From: a virus
Lineage: Duplodnaviria; Caudoviricetes
Length of the DNA: 64,000 bases
Virus record (IMG/VR): IMGVR_UViG_3300042397_003635
Reading direction: 5' to 3' (one strand)
Shown: piece by piece, positions 34,732-49,794 of the stretch
Layout: each line of letters opens with the position of its first letter
How positions within the stretch are numbered: the stretch's first letter is position 1
Position numbers and translations under genes: made by a program
The notes under the pieces: generated by a model
Databases searched by the model: none
What the model saw: the letters and a program-made list of their open reading frames with translations, nothing else
What the model was told of the DNA's origin: nothing

Positions 34732-34750
34732 TCTGATTTAACTTCATAAA

Positions 34751-38157: not shown

Positions 38158-38646
38158 ATGAATGCAATGAAAAGAACTCCAAAACCTCTATCTAGAGGAG
38201 AATTAATTAGATTTATTAAGATTGGTGACGTAAAAACTCCCGAATATGGAACTCCAGGGTCGGCTGGTATCGACTTTTTTGTTCCAAATGATTTTAAATC
38301 AGTTTTTCTTGAGCCAGGCGAATCAGTTTTAATCCCAAGCGGTATTCGTGCAAGGCTTCCTCTACATACAGCCCTAATCGCATTTAATAAAAGCGGAGTT
38401 GCTACAAAAAAGAGACTCCAAGTTGGCGCCCAAGTAGTAGATTGTGATTACCAAGGAGAGATCCACCTCCATCACTATAATTGTGGAACAACCGATCAAT
38501 TAATTTCGCCAGGCGATAAGATAGTTCAGTTTATTTTAACCCCAATTATTAAAGCCAAATTAATTGAATGTCACAGTGAAGAAGAGGTATTTCCAACTCA
38601 GTCAGAAAGAGGTTCTGGCGGATTTGGTTCCACTGGAACAAATTAA
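38158..38646 (+). CDS. dut: Trimeric dUTPase
   Basis: GSAGIDF, IPSGI, FNKSG, VVDCDYQGEI, GDKIVQF, ERGSGGFGSTG (motifs 1-5). Confidence 0.93.
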   Translation: MNAMKRTPKPLSRGELIRFIKIGDVKTPEYGTPGSAGIDFFVPNDFKSVFLEPGESVLIPSGIRARLPLHTALIAFNKSGVATKKRLQVGAQVVDCDYQGEIHLHHYNCGTTDQLISPGDKIVQFILTPIIKAKLIECHSEEEVFPTQSERGSGGFGSTGTN

Positions 38647-38675: not shown

Positions 38676-40055
38676 ATGATAATAAGCTCAGAATTTAAGC
38701 AAGACGATTCTAAACTAGTAGTTTCATATTATGATGATGCAGGTAATGTTGCATATGCGGTAAAGCATATCCACGATGCGGATCAATTCAATTGGAAATT
38801 GACAGGTCGCCCTTCAGAATATCGAAATTGGGATAATAAATTTGTTGACAAAAGTAAAAGTAAATGGCTTAGCCGATTCAGAATCGAAGAGCTTATTCAA
38901 ACCCGTTTTTCTGAAGAAGAACTTGCTCAAATCTATTCTGACCATAATCCAAAGAAATACTTTCTCGATATTGAGATTCAGTTAACTTCAAACGAGTTCC
39001 CTGATCCAGCTAAAGCTGCCATGCCAGTTAACCTAATTTCATTTTGTGGTCCAGATAATGTGACGTATATTCTATCAACCATGAAAAAACTTGATAATGA
39101 AGCCATTTCTAAAATGGAATCAGAAATCAATGAATATTTAAGTGCTCAAGGCCAGGTCTTTACTATTAAATATATGTTCTTTGAGAAAGAAGAAGACTTA
39201 ATGTCAACCTTCTTTCATAGAATTCTTCCTAAACTTCCATTTATTACTGGTTGGAATGTAATTGAGTTTGACTGGAAATATCTAATCAATCGCTGTAAGC
39301 GCCTTAATATTAAACCAATGGAATCTATGGTTTGTGATAAGCTTATTGGTAAAGGTCAATCTCCAGTTCACTTAGGCCTTCTCGATTATCTTGAAGTATT
39401 TATGAACCTTAAACCAATTAAGGTTGTTGAAAACTATAAATTAGATTATATTTCACAATTGGTGCTTGGTGTAAGTAAATTACATCACGATTATGGATCA
39501 ATGATGGAAGCTCAGCAAGATGTTGAAAACTTCGTAAAGTATAACGCGATTGACGTTATGCTAGTTAAACTAATTGAAGACAAATTAAGTCTTCTTGATG
39601 TAGCATTTGCTATTTCTAAAACTGCACAAGTCGATGTATCAAAAGTCTTTAGTGCAGTGTTTATTACAGAATCCCTAATGTGTCGCCACTTTTTACGAGA
39701 TGGCAAGAAAATGGCTTCAGATAAACGCGATCTAGCTGAACAAGTAACGTATGAAGGTGCTTATGTAAGTAAACCTGTTCCAGGTCACCACAAATACGTT
39801 TCATGTTTTGACTTCTCATCAATGTACCCTAACGTACAAATTCAATTTAATATTTCACCAGATACCTATTTAGGTAAAATGAAACCTGGTCATACTCTTA
39901 AAGAGGATGAAATCTATACAAAAAATGGTACTCTTTTTACTAAGAAAAAAGACTCTGCTGCAAGAGTTATTTTAAAGTCGATGTACGATCGACGTATGAG
40001 TATTAAAGGCCACATCACAGAATTAAAACAAGCAGCTAAAAAAGCAGCAAACTAA
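38676..40055 (+). CDS. polB: Family B DNA polymerase, N-terminal part only (exonuclease plus motif A); split gp43A-like
   Basis: FLDIE, ITGWNVIEFDWKYL, YNAIDV, YEGAYV, FDFSSMYPN, NISPDT. Stops before motif B (KxxxNSxYG) and motif C (YGDTDS). Confidence 0.88.
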   Translation: MIISSEFKQDDSKLVVSYYDDAGNVAYAVKHIHDADQFNWKLTGRPSEYRNWDNKFVDKSKSKWLSRFRIEELIQTRFSEEELAQIYSDHNPKKYFLDIEIQLTSNEFPDPAKAAMPVNLISFCGPDNVTYILSTMKKLDNEAISKMESEINEYLSAQGQVFTIKYMFFEKEEDLMSTFFHRILPKLPFITGWNVIEFDWKYLINRCKRLNIKPMESMVCDKLIGKGQSPVHLGLLDYLEVFMNLKPIKVVENYKLDYISQLVLGVSKLHHDYGSMMEAQQDVENFVKYNAIDVMLVKLIEDKLSLLDVAFAISKTAQVDVSKVFSAVFITESLMCRHFLRDGKKMASDKRDLAEQVTYEGAYVSKPVPGHHKYVSCFDFSSMYPNVQIQFNISPDTYLGKMKPGHTLKEDEIYTKNGTLFTKKKDSAARVILKSMYDRRMSIKGHITELKQAAKKAAN

Positions 40056-48041: not shown

Positions 48042-48926
48042 ATGCATACTTACAAAGGAACATCATTTGCGGAAGCTTACCAAAAGTCATTAATCGATTT
48101 AATGGACAATGGTGACTTATGCGAAACGCGAGGAACTACAAGCAGAGAATTATTAAATGTTTCTCTAGAAATCACTGATCCAAGTCAGTGTATGTATACC
48201 AATATGACTAGGTCTACCCAGACTAAATATATTGCAGCTGAATTTTTATGGTATTATGCTGGTCGTAATGATGTAGCATTTATTTCAAAATATGCAAAAT
48301 TTTGGGAGCAGATTCAAAATCCAAATGGTACCGCTAACTCTGCTTATGGTAACCTAATATTTAAACCAAAATCTCTTGGTGGAATTACTCAATACGAATG
48401 GGCAATTGCATCATTAGCAAAGGATAAAGATAGTAGACAAGCAATTCTTCACTTTAATACGCCAGAACATCAATATAATGGTAATAAAGATTTTGTTTGC
48501 ACAATGTATGGAATTTTTCATATTAGACACAATAAACTAAACTTTAGTGTCTATATGAGATCTAATGATGCTATTTGGGGTACACCAACTGATGTTGCAT
48601 TTTTCTGTTCTCTACAAATGCAGGCTCTTGCTCATCTTAAGGAATTTTATCCAGAATTAGAGTTAGGAACCTATACTCACCATGCAAACTCATATCATAT
48701 TTATGATAGACACTATGATCTAGTTAGTCGTATGTTAGTTGGAGAGTTCGTTCCATCTAGACTGCCTTCAATTAAAACTAATCTTGTTTCAATGTCAGGT
48801 CACCCTACACAAGAGTTTAATGACATTTTTGAATTTATTGAACATGATCAAGATGATATTTTAATACTACAAGAAAAAGAAGATCTATTAACTTGGATCG
48901 TAAATCAATTTGGCGATGATAACTAG
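48042..48926 (+). CDS. Thymidylate synthase-family enzyme, T4 gp42 (dCMP hydroxymethylase)-like
   Basis: EFLWY, ANSAYG, DKDSRQAI, catalytic DFVCT, MRSNDAIWGTPTD, SYHIY. Asp at the E. coli ThyA Asn177-equivalent position. Confidence 0.8.
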   Translation: MHTYKGTSFAEAYQKSLIDLMDNGDLCETRGTTSRELLNVSLEITDPSQCMYTNMTRSTQTKYIAAEFLWYYAGRNDVAFISKYAKFWEQIQNPNGTANSAYGNLIFKPKSLGGITQYEWAIASLAKDKDSRQAILHFNTPEHQYNGNKDFVCTMYGIFHIRHNKLNFSVYMRSNDAIWGTPTDVAFFCSLQMQALAHLKEFYPELELGTYTHHANSYHIYDRHYDLVSRMLVGEFVPSRLPSIKTNLVSMSGHPTQEFNDIFEFIEHDQDDILILQEKEDLLTWIVNQFGDDN

Positions 48927-49362
48927 ATACGATATTGTATACATGAAAATGGCCTCAGAATGGGGACAATTATCGAATGCTCGTCGTAAAAAAGTTGGAG
49001 CGCTCCTAGTTAAGAATAACACTATTATAGCTGATGGTTATAATGGAACTCCATCTGGTTTTGAAAATGAATGCGAAAATCCTTTATTTGATGCAGATGG
49101 TAATTTTTTAGACTATGAAACAAAATGGTATGTTTTGCACGCCGAATCTAATGCTTTAGCTAAAGTTGCAAAATCTACTCAATCTTCTGAGGGTTCTACT
49201 CTTTATGTTACAATGTCTCCGTGTAGAGAGTGTAGCAAATTAATTCTTCAAGCAGGAATTAAAAGAGTAGTCTATTCGGAATCATACAGAGATTCTGCCG
49301 GTCTCGACCTCTTAAAAAAGGCAGGGGTTGATGTAGTTCAGATTCTACCCGAATCAGAATAA
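48916..49362 (+). CDS. cd: dCMP deaminase
   Basis: KVGALLV, GYNGTPSG, HAESNAL, LYVTMSPCRECSK zinc motifs. Confidence 0.93.
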   Translation: MITRYDIVYMKMASEWGQLSNARRKKVGALLVKNNTIIADGYNGTPSGFENECENPLFDADGNFLDYETKWYVLHAESNALAKVAKSTQSSEGSTLYVTMSPCRECSKLILQAGIKRVVYSESYRDSAGLDLLKKAGVDVVQILPESE

Positions 49363-49379
49363 AAAATTCCATTCGTATT

Positions 49380-49781
49380 TTGACAGAAGATATTGCAACC
49401 AGAGAATTAACAATTGTTTTCGTAAGAGATTATAAAACATTCGTTGAACACTTTTCTAAAAAATGTAAAAGTGATTACGTTCTTAACATTAATAAGATCG
49501 TAAAAGAGAAATTTCAAACTGAAATCTTTATTCCAAATAAAGTTCAGGCTTTTTTATTAAATTATGAAATTTCCAAACTTATTGATAAGGTAATTAAAAT
49601 AAAGAATCAAAAGTATTCCAGACTAATCTACTTGAATACAGAGCTTTCTCCCACTGGAATTTTAAATTCAATTAACTTTTTAAAGACCACATATACATGG
49701 GTCGAATTTGATTTTACTGTTATTGATCCAGATAAGGAATTCCATGCCGTACTAAAGGACATAAAAAAAGGAGAGCTATAA
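49380..49781 (+). CDS. Hypothetical protein (133 aa)
   Basis: TTG start; last gene of the plus-strand operon; alternating alpha/beta pattern, no motif recognised. Confidence 0.55.
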   Translation: MTEDIATRELTIVFVRDYKTFVEHFSKKCKSDYVLNINKIVKEKFQTEIFIPNKVQAFLLNYEISKLIDKVIKIKNQKYSRLIYLNTELSPTGILNSINFLKTTYTWVEFDFTVIDPDKEFHAVLKDIKKGEL

Positions 49782-49794
49782 AGTTCTCCTTTTT
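49765..49794. terminator. Bidirectional intrinsic terminator between convergent operons
   Basis: AAAAAGGAGAGCT-ATAA-AGTTCTCCTTTTT. Confidence 0.8.

What the first reader, a model, noticed from the sequence alone, without database searches (positions are those of the whole stretch)
48042..49781. TS-family enzyme with the cytosine-specifying Asp: probable dCMP hydroxymethylase/methylase and hence modified DNA
Seen: MRSNDAIWGTPTD (48555-48593) has Asp exactly where E. coli ThyA has Asn177 (RSCDVFLGLPFN) and T4 gp42 has Asp179 (MRSNDVVFGFRND). Other blocks also follow gp42 as I recall it: YIAAEFLWY vs YIQRELEWY, ANSAYG vs INSNYG, DKDSRQAI vs NPDSRRGI, DFVCT vs DFMCT. Established: this Asn/Asp position governs dUMP versus dCMP preference in the thymidylate synthase superfamily. 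Inference: the phage may make 5-hydroxymethyl- or 5-methyl-dCMP as anti-restriction and anti-CRISPR armour. It overlaps a dCMP deaminase gene, and an orphan 133-aa ORF follows that could be pathway-related. Caveats: no glycosyltransferase, dCTPase or dNMP kinase is recognisable here, and the adjacent deaminase fits equally well with a plain dUMP-to-dTMP role.
Basis: partly seen in the sequence, partly recalled or inferred. Interest (0 to 1): 0.75.

Follow-up and report, generated by a model that had tools for sequence, protein, structure and literature searches.

The report
Phage dCMP hydroxymethylase, T4 gp42 type
A ~254-kb uncultured lake phage of Bacteroidota carries an ordinary thymidylate synthase and also a second enzyme of the same fold whose active site matches phage T4's dCMP hydroxymethylase residue for residue, so it very probably builds 5-hydroxymethylcytosine into its DNA, a well-known anti-restriction trick seen here in a new phage group.

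Summary
ORF 48042-48926 (294 aa) is a thymidylate-synthase-fold protein, and its Asp184 sits where E. coli ThyA has Asn177 and T4 gp42 has Asp179.

At 12 active-site positions it is identical to T4 gp42. It differs from reference dUMP hydroxymethylases, from the Xp12/PaMx74 dCMP methylases and from the RB69 5-hydroxy-dCMP synthase. It also has the published hydroxymethylation signature: Asp three residues before the catalytic Cys, plus Ser-x-Tyr. It carries the Ser and Arg that favour dCMP over CMP.

The closest solved structure is MilA, a CMP hydroxymethylase (Z 31.4).

A near-identical strain carries a separate canonical ThyA about 45 kb downstream. This enzyme is therefore not needed for dTMP, and the adjacent dCMP deaminase fits the T4 'cd' role.

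The order Rad50, hydroxymethylase, deaminase, ORF133 holds in 79 of 79 related contigs. ORF133 models as a kinase fold without a P-loop; its function is unknown.

I found no gp1-type kinase and no T4-type beta-glucosyltransferase. Candidates elsewhere in the genome are a guanylate-kinase-like protein, a MazG-like protein and a virus-specific GT2.

This is a new member of a known kind. The scan reached the same conclusion earlier on a related phage. DNA modification itself remains inferred.

The parts
48042..48926 (+). 294-aa thymidylate-synthase-fold enzyme, predicted dCMP 5-hydroxymethylase (5hmdCMP synthase).
   Evidence: Pfam PF00303 at 3.2e-24. PDB sequence matches: MilA 1.4e-23 and T4 dCH 3.6e-18. 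The AlphaFold model has pLDDT 96.5 and matches MilA at Z 31.4 over 275 residues, rmsd 2.3. The 12-position active-site signature is identical to T4 gp42.
48555..48593 (+). MRSNDAIWGTPTD block. Arg173 and Ser174 bind phosphate and ribose. Asp176 corresponds to ThyA Asp169. Asp184 corresponds to ThyA Asn177 and T4 Asp179 and selects cytosine.
   Evidence: Residue-by-residue alignments to T4 dCH and MilA and to E. coli ThyA. Ser174, Asp176 and Asp184 are invariant in 50 diverse homologues.
48489..48503 (+). D150-F-V-C153-T154. Cys153 is the catalytic nucleophile. Asp150 lies three residues before it and corresponds to T4 Asp145, the water-activating residue.
   Evidence: Asp150 is invariant, and Cys153 and Thr154 are nearly invariant. 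The rule comes from PMC6400193.
48339..48347 (+). Ser100-Ala-Tyr102, the Ser-x-Tyr half of the hydroxymethylation signature (T4 Ser94 and Tyr96).
   Evidence: Query ANSAYG aligns with T4 INSNYG. Tyr102 is invariant and Ser100 nearly invariant.
48910..49362 (+). dCMP deaminase, 150 aa from TTG 48910 or 148 aa from ATG 48916. It overlaps the end of the hydroxymethylase gene.
   Evidence: Pfam PF00383 at 5e-24. PHROG 174, dCMP deaminase, at 2.8e-52. Best PDB match is cyanophage S-TIM5 dCMP deaminase 4p9c at 2.3e-36; T4 cd 1vq2 scores 3.1e-22. The HAE and PCxxC zinc motifs are present.
49380..49781 (+). ORF133, a conserved lineage-specific protein of unknown function. The model shows a P-loop-kinase-like fold that lacks the Walker A loop.
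   Evidence: It follows the deaminase in 79 of 79 related IMG/VR loci that have downstream DNA. Forty-two columns are invariant in 20 sequences. Model pLDDT is 79. It matches the T4 polynucleotide kinase domain at Z 9.3 over 114 residues, rmsd 3.7. It has no Pfam or PHROG match.
49765..49794 (.). A 13-bp hairpin with an A-run on one side and a T-run on the other, spanning the ORF133 stop codon. It is probably a two-way terminator between the + strand replication and nucleotide operon and the convergent - strand late genes.
   Evidence: Found by the terminator scan and visible in the sequence. It is a consensus match only and is not tested.
38158..38646 (+). Canonical trimeric dUTPase at the head of the same + strand gene block.
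   Evidence: Pfam PF00692 at 5.2e-19. PHROG 135 at 1.8e-36. PDB dUTPases score up to 1.6e-19, and the C-terminal GGFGSTG motif is present.

Best explanation
The gene encodes a folate-dependent dCMP 5-hydroxymethylase that works like T4 gp42.

Inferred mechanism, by homology:
- Cys153 attacks C6 of dCMP.
- Asp184 recognises and protonates the cytosine ring.
- Glu67 activates methylene-tetrahydrofolate.
- Asp150, with Ser100 and Tyr102, positions a water molecule. That water attacks the exocyclic methylene intermediate, instead of hydride transfer, and gives 5-hydroxymethyl-dCMP.

The product is then phosphorylated and used by the phage polymerase, so 5hmC replaces C in phage DNA as protection against host nucleases.

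The adjacent dCMP deaminase plays the T4 'cd' role. It supplies dUMP to the phage's separate canonical thymidylate synthase.

Shown here: the fold, the residues, the second ThyA and the conserved gene order.
Inferred: the enzyme activity, the kinase step, any further decoration of 5hmC, and the presence of 5hmC in virions.
For: (1) Sequence. Pfam PF00303. The best solved relatives are the cytosine hydroxymethylases MilA and T4 dCH.

(2) Active-site signature at E. coli positions 58, 80, 94, 143, 146, 147, 165, 168, 169, 177, 207 and 209:
- Query: EWYDCTMNDDHY, identical to a T4-type gp42 and to the Enterococcus phage VPE25 homologue.
- dUMP hydroxymethylase references: Asn at 147, 165 and 177.
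- Xp12/PaMx74 dCMP methylases: N143, P147, L165, S168.
- RB69 5-hydroxy-dCMP synthase: E143 and N169.

(3) Conservation. All 120 close homologues keep D143, C146, T/S147, D169 and D177.

(4) Published rules met:
- Asp at C-3 plus Ser-x-Tyr marks a hydroxymethylase; T4 D145N is dead (PMC6400193).
- D169N marks hydroxylases (PMC13326640).
- MilA A176S/K133R switches preference from CMP to dCMP (PMC5175136). The query has Ser174 and Arg132.

(5) Structure. A model at pLDDT 96.5 matches MilA at Z 31.4 over 275 of 294 residues, including the C-terminal extension. ThyA chains score about Z 23-24.

(6) Second synthase. A canonical 396-aa ThyA (L143, C146, H147, D169, N177; Pfam 275 bits) lies on the contig of a 98.7%-identical strain. 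The three more distant relatives checked also have both copies.

(7) Context of more distant homologues:
- VPE25: next to dUTPase and b-gt.
- A 45%-identical homologue: next to a T4-Gluco-transf gene, dUTPase and NTP-transferase.
- A 50%-identical homologue in a 462-kb uncultured phage: near a 418-aa ORF whose N-terminus resembles T4 beta-GT. That resemblance is from memory and was not tested.

(8) Association. A dCMP deaminase in cis with a TS homologue was found on 70% of deaminase-bearing cytosine-modified metavirome contigs against 6% of unmodified ones (bioRxiv 10.1101/2024.12.05.627091).
Against: - No gp1-family dNMP kinase was found; phrog_139 gave only weak P-loop hits.
- No PF09198 beta-glucosyltransferase was found in the strain contigs or in two near-complete relatives.
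- The tree does not place the protein as a specific sister of T4 gp42. It sits in a large, poorly resolved radiation of homologues with D143, T147 and D177.
- The nearest structure, MilA, prefers CMP.
- There is no chemical or sequencing-signal evidence for modified DNA. All public runs that hold the phage are kept as assembled contigs.
Confidence: 0.77

Rival explanations
1. The enzyme uses dCMP but makes a different C5 product. It would be 5-methyl-dCMP (Xp12 type), with the adjacent deaminase turning part of it into dTMP, or 5-hydroxy-dCMP (RB69 type).
For: Asp at N177 only says 'cytosine'. In-cis deaminases of five metavirome TS homologues accompany 5mdCMP synthases. The HY126 dCMP hydroxylase is a good structural match at Z 24.6.
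Against: The Xp12/PaMx74 methylases have N143, P147, L165 and S168, and group with canonical ThyA at 99% support. The query has D143, T147, M165 and N168. The hydroxylase marker D169N is absent, because the query keeps Asp176. A separate canonical ThyA removes the need for a 5mdCMP-to-dTMP bypass.
Confidence: 0.08
2. The pair works in series. The hydroxymethylase makes 5hmdCMP and the adjacent deaminase converts it to 5hmdUMP. The modified base in DNA is then 5hmU, or a derivative, in place of T, alone or together with 5hmC.
For: The two genes overlap and are always adjacent. Seven metavirome deaminases found in cis with TS homologues deaminated 5hmdC in vivo.
Against: The genome keeps a canonical ThyA and a dUTPase, which argues for normal dTMP supply. 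The deaminase is closest to ordinary viral dCMP deaminases, S-TIM5 4p9c and T4 cd. None of the 5hmU hypermodification markers was noticed, but I made no targeted search for them.
Confidence: 0.07
3. It is just a divergent thymidylate synthase acting on dUMP.
For: Databases annotate it as 'thymidylate synthase'.
Against: It has Asp, not Asn, at 177. It has Asp, not Leu, at 143 and Thr, not His, at 147. The genome already has a fully canonical ThyA.
Confidence: 0.03
4. It is a MilA-like CMP (ribonucleotide) hydroxymethylase that feeds a nucleoside or RNA-related product rather than DNA.
For: MilA is the best sequence and structure match, including the extra C-terminal region.
Against: MilA's ribose-preference residues Ala176 and Lys133 are Ser174 and Arg132 here. 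That is the state which reverses MilA to dCMP preference. The gene lies in a DNA replication and repair operon next to a dCMP deaminase.
Confidence: 0.03

Closest known systems
Phage T4 gp42, deoxycytidylate 5-hydroxymethyltransferase (PDB 1B5D/1B5E/6A9A)
   Same: It has the same fold. All 12 compared active-site residues are identical, including Cys, Asp(C-3), Thr(C+1), Ser-x-Tyr, Asp169 and Asp177. The genomic logic is also the same: a second canonical TS plus a dCMP deaminase.
   Different: Identity is only about 27%. The query is 48 residues longer, with a MilA-like C-terminal region. It is not a specific sister of gp42 in the tree. No gp1, gp56, alpha-GT or beta-GT homologues were detected by the searches made.
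MilA, CMP 5-hydroxymethylase of Streptomyces rimofaciens (PDB 5JNH/5B6D)
   Same: It is the best solved match by sequence (1.4e-23) and by structure (Z 31.4, 275 residues aligned, 29% identity), including the C-terminal extension. It has the same Asp residues at the positions of ThyA 143 and 177.
   Different: MilA has Ala176 and Lys133 and prefers CMP. The query has Ser174 and Arg132, the dCMP-type residues. MilA belongs to an antibiotic pathway, not to a phage replication module.
TS-homologue plus dCMP-deaminase pairs of cytosine-modified metavirome contigs (MetaGPA; Yang et al. 2021 eLife, PMC8670742; Yang et al. 2024 bioRxiv 10.1101/2024.12.05.627091)
   Same: The gene pair is the same and sits in cis. 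The diagnostic residues are the same: N177D, and a change at H147.
   Different: The characterised examples were mostly 5mdCMP synthases paired with 5mC-selective deaminases that bypass a TS. This genome has a hydroxymethylase-type signature and keeps a canonical ThyA.
Enterococcus phage VPE25 TS homologue (closest cultured-phage homologue, 37% identity)
   Same: It has an identical 12-residue signature and is followed by dUTPase and a beta-glucosyltransferase gene.
   Different: It comes from a siphovirus of Firmicutes. The present genome has no detectable beta-GT.

Membership tests
dCMP hydroxymethylase (T4 gp42 type) | Thymidylate synthase fold with the catalytic Cys (T4 Cys148) and Glu (T4 Glu60). 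| tested here: met
   PF00303. Cys153 and Glu67 align. The model matches TS-fold chains at Z 23-31.
dCMP hydroxymethylase (T4 gp42 type) | Asp at the position of E. coli ThyA Asn177 (T4 Asp179), which gives cytosine specificity. | tested here: met
   Asp184. It is invariant in 50 homologues.
dCMP hydroxymethylase (T4 gp42 type) | Asp or Glu three residues before the catalytic Cys (T4 Asp145), plus Ser-x-Tyr (T4 Ser94 and Tyr96). This is the hydroxymethylation signature of PMC6400193. | tested here: met
   Asp150, Ser100 and Tyr102.
dCMP hydroxymethylase (T4 gp42 type) | Ser and Arg in the ribose and phosphate pocket, which give 2'-deoxy preference, in contrast to MilA Ala176 and Lys133. | tested here: met
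   Ser174 and Arg132.
dCMP hydroxymethylase (T4 gp42 type) | Catalytic conversion of dCMP plus CH2-THF to 5hmdCMP. | not testable with these tools
   This needs an enzyme assay or in vivo expression followed by LC-MS.
5-hydroxy-dCMP synthase (RB69 gp48 / DLP3 gp80 / HY126 AfhB type) | Asn at the position of ThyA Asp169 (D169N), as defined in PMC13326640. | tested here: not met
   The query keeps Asp176. RB69 gp48 has Asn there.
dCMP methylase (Xp12 / PaMx74 type) | Active-site pattern N143, P147, L165, S168 with D177, and grouping with the Xp12/PaMx74 clade. | tested here: not met
   The query has D143, T147, M165 and N168. Xp12 and PaMx74 cluster with canonical ThyA at 99% support, apart from the query.
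dUMP hydroxymethylase (SPO1 gp29 / ViI / M6 type) | Asn at 177 (uracil specificity) together with D143 and N147. | tested here: not met
   The query has Asp184 and Thr154. The dUMP hydroxymethylase references form a separate clade with 100% support.
Canonical thymidylate synthase ThyA | Leu143, His147 and Asn177. | tested here: not met
   The query has Asp150, Thr154 and Asp184. The genome's other TS gene has all three canonical residues.

The most novel reading that the evidence does not exclude
The invariant trio of hydroxymethylase, deaminase and ORF133 would be a self-contained pyrimidine-modification module with chemistry beyond T4's.

In one version, the deaminase also takes 5hmdCMP, so both C and T positions carry hydroxymethyl-derived bases. 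In another, the P-loop-less kinase-fold ORF133 is a new accessory or regulatory subunit.

In addition, 5hmC would be further decorated by the virus-specific TarP-like GT2 rather than by a T4-type glucosyltransferase, giving a DNA base not yet described for Bacteroidota phages.
Probability: 0.12. Interest if true: 0.6.

Novelty: new member of a known kind. Interest (0 to 1): 0.3.

Why it matters
This predicts that a widespread group of about 250-290-kb T4-like phages carries 5-hydroxymethylcytosine DNA. The group infects freshwater Bacteroidota and was found in lake metagenomes from 20 studies.

That would affect how well these phages are recovered by modification-sensitive library methods. It would also affect how host restriction and CRISPR systems see them.

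The group offers a MilA-like, full-length variant of the enzyme for comparison with T4 gp42.

The principle, the diagnostic residues and the pairing with a deaminase are already published. The gain is therefore in annotation and ecology, not in concept.

Tried and rejected
- **Complex prediction.** I folded the hydroxymethylase dimer with ORF133. The result was 'no answer', score 0.00. It is not evidence either way.

- **Nucleotide search of cultured phage genomes.** No match for the region. The closest capsid relatives are uncultured huge phages and the Lak phages. I identified no close cultured relative on which to propose a test.

- **ThyX.** Absent from the strain contigs and from three relatives.

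- **T4 beta-GT (PF09198).** No hit. The family also rang in none of the control genomes, so the negative is weak.

- **gp1 dNMP kinase (phrog_139).** Only weak P-loop hits. phmmer with RB69 gp1, gp45 and VPE25 b-gt against all 308 ORFs gave nothing convincing.

- **ORF133 relatives.** A profile search of ORF133 listed only the same phage group among its 120 best hits, and the protein atlas gave no usable hit.

- **Palindrome statistics on the 253.7-kb composite genome.** There is no marked avoidance of C/G-containing 4-mers: GATC observed/expected 1.00, CCGG 0.95, GGCC 0.98. This is compatible with protected DNA, but many unmodified phages look the same, so I do not count it.

- **Sequencing runs.** All 24 runs listed are stored as contigs, so no read-level signal of modification could be sought.

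- **Phylogeny.** The deep branches are unresolved. The tree cannot say which characterised enzyme is the nearest relative.
Full report
**What is there**

The window is part of an uncultured T4-like jumbo phage with about 33-35% G+C.

On the + strand, a replication, recombination and nucleotide block runs as follows:
- a trimeric dUTPase (38158)
- a split family-B polymerase
- UvsX
- a DnaB-type helicase
- Mre11-like and Rad50-like proteins
- ORF 48042-48926
- a dCMP deaminase (48910-49362)
- ORF133 (49380-49781)

Convergent late genes on the - strand then begin. They include a Gp23-type capsid protein and the prohead protease.

A 13-bp hairpin flanked by an A-run and a T-run spans the ORF133 stop codon. 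It looks like a two-way terminator.

**Checking the observation**

The ORF is a PF00303 protein at E 3.2e-24. Its best matches among all solved chains are MilA, a CMP hydroxymethylase, at 1.4e-23, and T4 dCMP hydroxymethylase at 3.6e-18. Most ThyA chains follow at 1e-10 to 1e-12; one, Elizabethkingia 6auj, reaches 6.5e-17.

The printed alignment puts MRSNDAIWGTPTD on T4 MRSNDVVFGFRND, so Asp184 equals T4 Asp179.

A MAFFT alignment with E. coli ThyA taken from MG1655 places Asp184 on Asn177. The overlap with the deaminase gene is 11 or 17 nt, depending on the start codon.

**Which member of the superfamily**

I fetched reference enzymes from annotated phage records:
- a T4-type gp42
- the RB69 gp48 5-hydroxy-dCMP synthase
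- the Xp12 and PaMx74 dCMP methylases
- SPO1-like, ViI-like and M6-like dUMP hydroxymethylases
- E. coli ThyA

I compared them at E. coli positions 58, 80, 94, 143, 146, 147, 165, 168, 169, 177, 207 and 209:
- The query reads EWYDCTMNDDHY. This is identical to gp42 and to the Enterococcus phage VPE25 homologue.
- The dUMP hydroxymethylases have Asn at 147, 165 and 177.
- The methylases have N143, P147, L165 and S168.
- RB69 gp48 has E143 and N169.

All 120 close homologues keep D143, C146, T/S147, D169 and D177.

Published rules agree with this reading:
- N177D gives dCMP preference (cited in PMC13326640 and PMC8670742).
- Asp three residues before the Cys, together with Ser-x-Tyr, is the hydroxymethylation signature. 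T4 D145N is inactive (PMC6400193).
- D169N marks the flavin-dependent 5-hydroxy-dCMP synthases (PMC13326640).
- MilA Ala176 and Lys133 give CMP preference, and A176S/K133R reverses it (PMC5175136).

The query has Asp150, Ser100-x-Tyr102, Asp176, Ser174 and Arg132. Every rule therefore points to a dCMP hydroxymethylase.

**Structure and tree**

An AlphaFold model built from 50 homologues has pLDDT 96.5. It matches MilA best, at Z 31.4, rmsd 2.3, over 275 of 294 residues, including the C-terminal extension. The HY126 dCMP hydroxylase follows at Z 24.6, and ThyA chains at Z 23-24. By Foldseek, T4 dCH has TM 0.65 and 26-27% identity.

A maximum-likelihood tree used 61 sequences with the quick method, so it deserves less trust. 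It separates two clades with high support: canonical ThyA together with Xp12/PaMx74 (99), and the dUMP hydroxymethylases (100). The query's clade falls inside a large unresolved radiation of homologues with D143, T147 and D177. That radiation also contains gp42 and VPE25.

The tree therefore excludes the methylase, dUMP hydroxymethylase and ThyA clades. It does not name a nearest characterised relative.

**Genome context**

The window's own assembly is not held. Two IMG/VR contigs of a 98.7%-identical strain cover it and extend it to about 254 kb.

About 45 kb downstream of the query gene, that strain has a 396-aa canonical ThyA with L143, C146, H147, D169 and N177 (Pfam 275 bits). No ThyX was found. 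The three more distant relatives checked also carry both TS-fold genes; one of them is complete, with terminal repeats.

The phage does not need the Asp-type enzyme for dTMP. The deaminase fits the T4 'cd' role of feeding dUMP to the true synthase. Its best solved relatives are ordinary viral dCMP deaminases: cyanophage S-TIM5 at 2.3e-36 and T4 cd at 3.1e-22.

The order Rad50, TS homologue, deaminase, ORF133 is kept in 79 of 79 related loci with downstream sequence, at 58-100% TS identity.

More distant homologues of the enzyme sit in clear DNA-glycosylation neighbourhoods:
- VPE25: dUTPase and b-gt.
- A 45%-identical homologue: T4-Gluco-transf, dUTPase and NTP-transferase.

This supports 5hmC as the product of this protein clade.

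**Rest of the pathway (partly open)**

Found in the strain contigs:
- a MazG-like pyrophosphatase of 101 aa, a candidate dCTPase
- a guanylate-kinase-like protein of 158 aa with a GKD P-loop, the best candidate for the dNMP kinase (PF00625 at 9e-18, phrog_1815 at 7e-34)
- a 5'-deoxyribonucleotidase and a NUDIX hydrolase
- a 234-aa GT2

The GT2's best solved match is TarP, and it carries DAD and EDY motifs. Its nearest atlas clusters are 100% viral. GT2 ORFs of similar size occur in two relatives. Phage GT-A enzymes resembling TarP and JGT are known to glycosylate 5hmC (bioRxiv 10.1101/2023.12.21.572611). This GT2 is therefore a lead, not a finding.

Not found:
- a gp1-family kinase
- a PF09198 beta-GT

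**ORF133**

ORF133 is a real, strongly conserved protein, with 42 invariant columns in 20 sequences. Every relative I saw, including the 120 best profile hits, belongs to this phage group.

Its model has pLDDT 79. It has the P-loop kinase fold and matches the T4 polynucleotide kinase domain at Z 9.3 over 114 residues. The Walker A loop is missing: the sequence reads VRDYKT where GxxxxGK[ST] would be. Its role is unknown.

**Comparison with what is known, and verdict**

This is a gp42-type dCMP hydroxymethylase with a MilA-like overall architecture. It sits in the T4 arrangement of a second TS plus a dCMP deaminase.

The diagnostic residues and the TS-deaminase pairing in cytosine-modified viromes are already published (PMC8670742; bioRxiv 10.1101/2024.12.05.627091). 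This scan reached the same conclusion earlier on a related 254-kb freshwater phage (e1-5256808).

It is therefore a new member of a known kind, and interest is modest. What remains inferred is the enzyme activity, the kinase step, any decoration of 5hmC, and the presence of 5hmC in virions. No read-level data were available to test the last point.

Noticed in passing
L088:7950-9140 (-) = IMG/VR strain contig G002:47950-49140, about 45 kb beyond the query gene (outside the window): A canonical ThyA of 396 aa, about 130 residues longer than E. coli ThyA because of insertions. All catalytic residues are intact.
   Followed up: partly
L090:14899-15600 (-), strain contig G002 (outside the window): A 234-aa GT2 whose best PDB match is TarP. 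It has DAD and EDY motifs, and its nearest atlas clusters are 100% viral. GT2 ORFs of 236-241 aa also occur in two relatives. It is a candidate GT-A-type DNA glycosyltransferase for 5hmC, but this is untested.
   Followed up: partly
L093:9922-10395 (-), strain contig G001 (upstream of the window): A 158-aa guanylate-kinase-like protein with a GKD P-loop, as in T4 gp1. It sits next to DNA ligase, a DUF3127 protein and a NUDIX hydrolase. It is the best candidate for the missing dNMP kinase.
   Followed up: partly
L090:7928-8230 (-) and neighbours L090:6958-8013 and L090:8233-8955: A MazG-like pyrophosphatase lies next to a PRPP synthetase and a protein with a Tad6 (Thoeris inhibitor) domain.
   Followed up: no
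window 34736-34746 against G001:129327-131242: The 98.7%-identical strain contig has about 1.9 kb that the window lacks at this point. This is an insertion or deletion difference between strains.
   Followed up: no
window 38676-40055: The family-B DNA polymerase ORF (459 aa) holds the exonuclease domain and only the start of the polymerase domain. The same short ORF (468 aa) occurs in relatives, so the polymerase appears to be split.
   Followed up: no
L088:13078-13458 (-): A phage-encoded S-adenosylmethionine decarboxylase-like protein (PF02675 at 1.2e-11).
   Followed up: no
L115:7298-8554 (+) in LR756500.1 (462-kb uncultured phage): About 1.4 kb downstream of its 50%-identical TS homologue lies a 418-aa ORF whose N-terminus resembles T4 beta-glucosyltransferase, with a nucleotidyltransferase-like ORF upstream. 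Both resemblances were judged by eye and from memory only.
   Followed up: no
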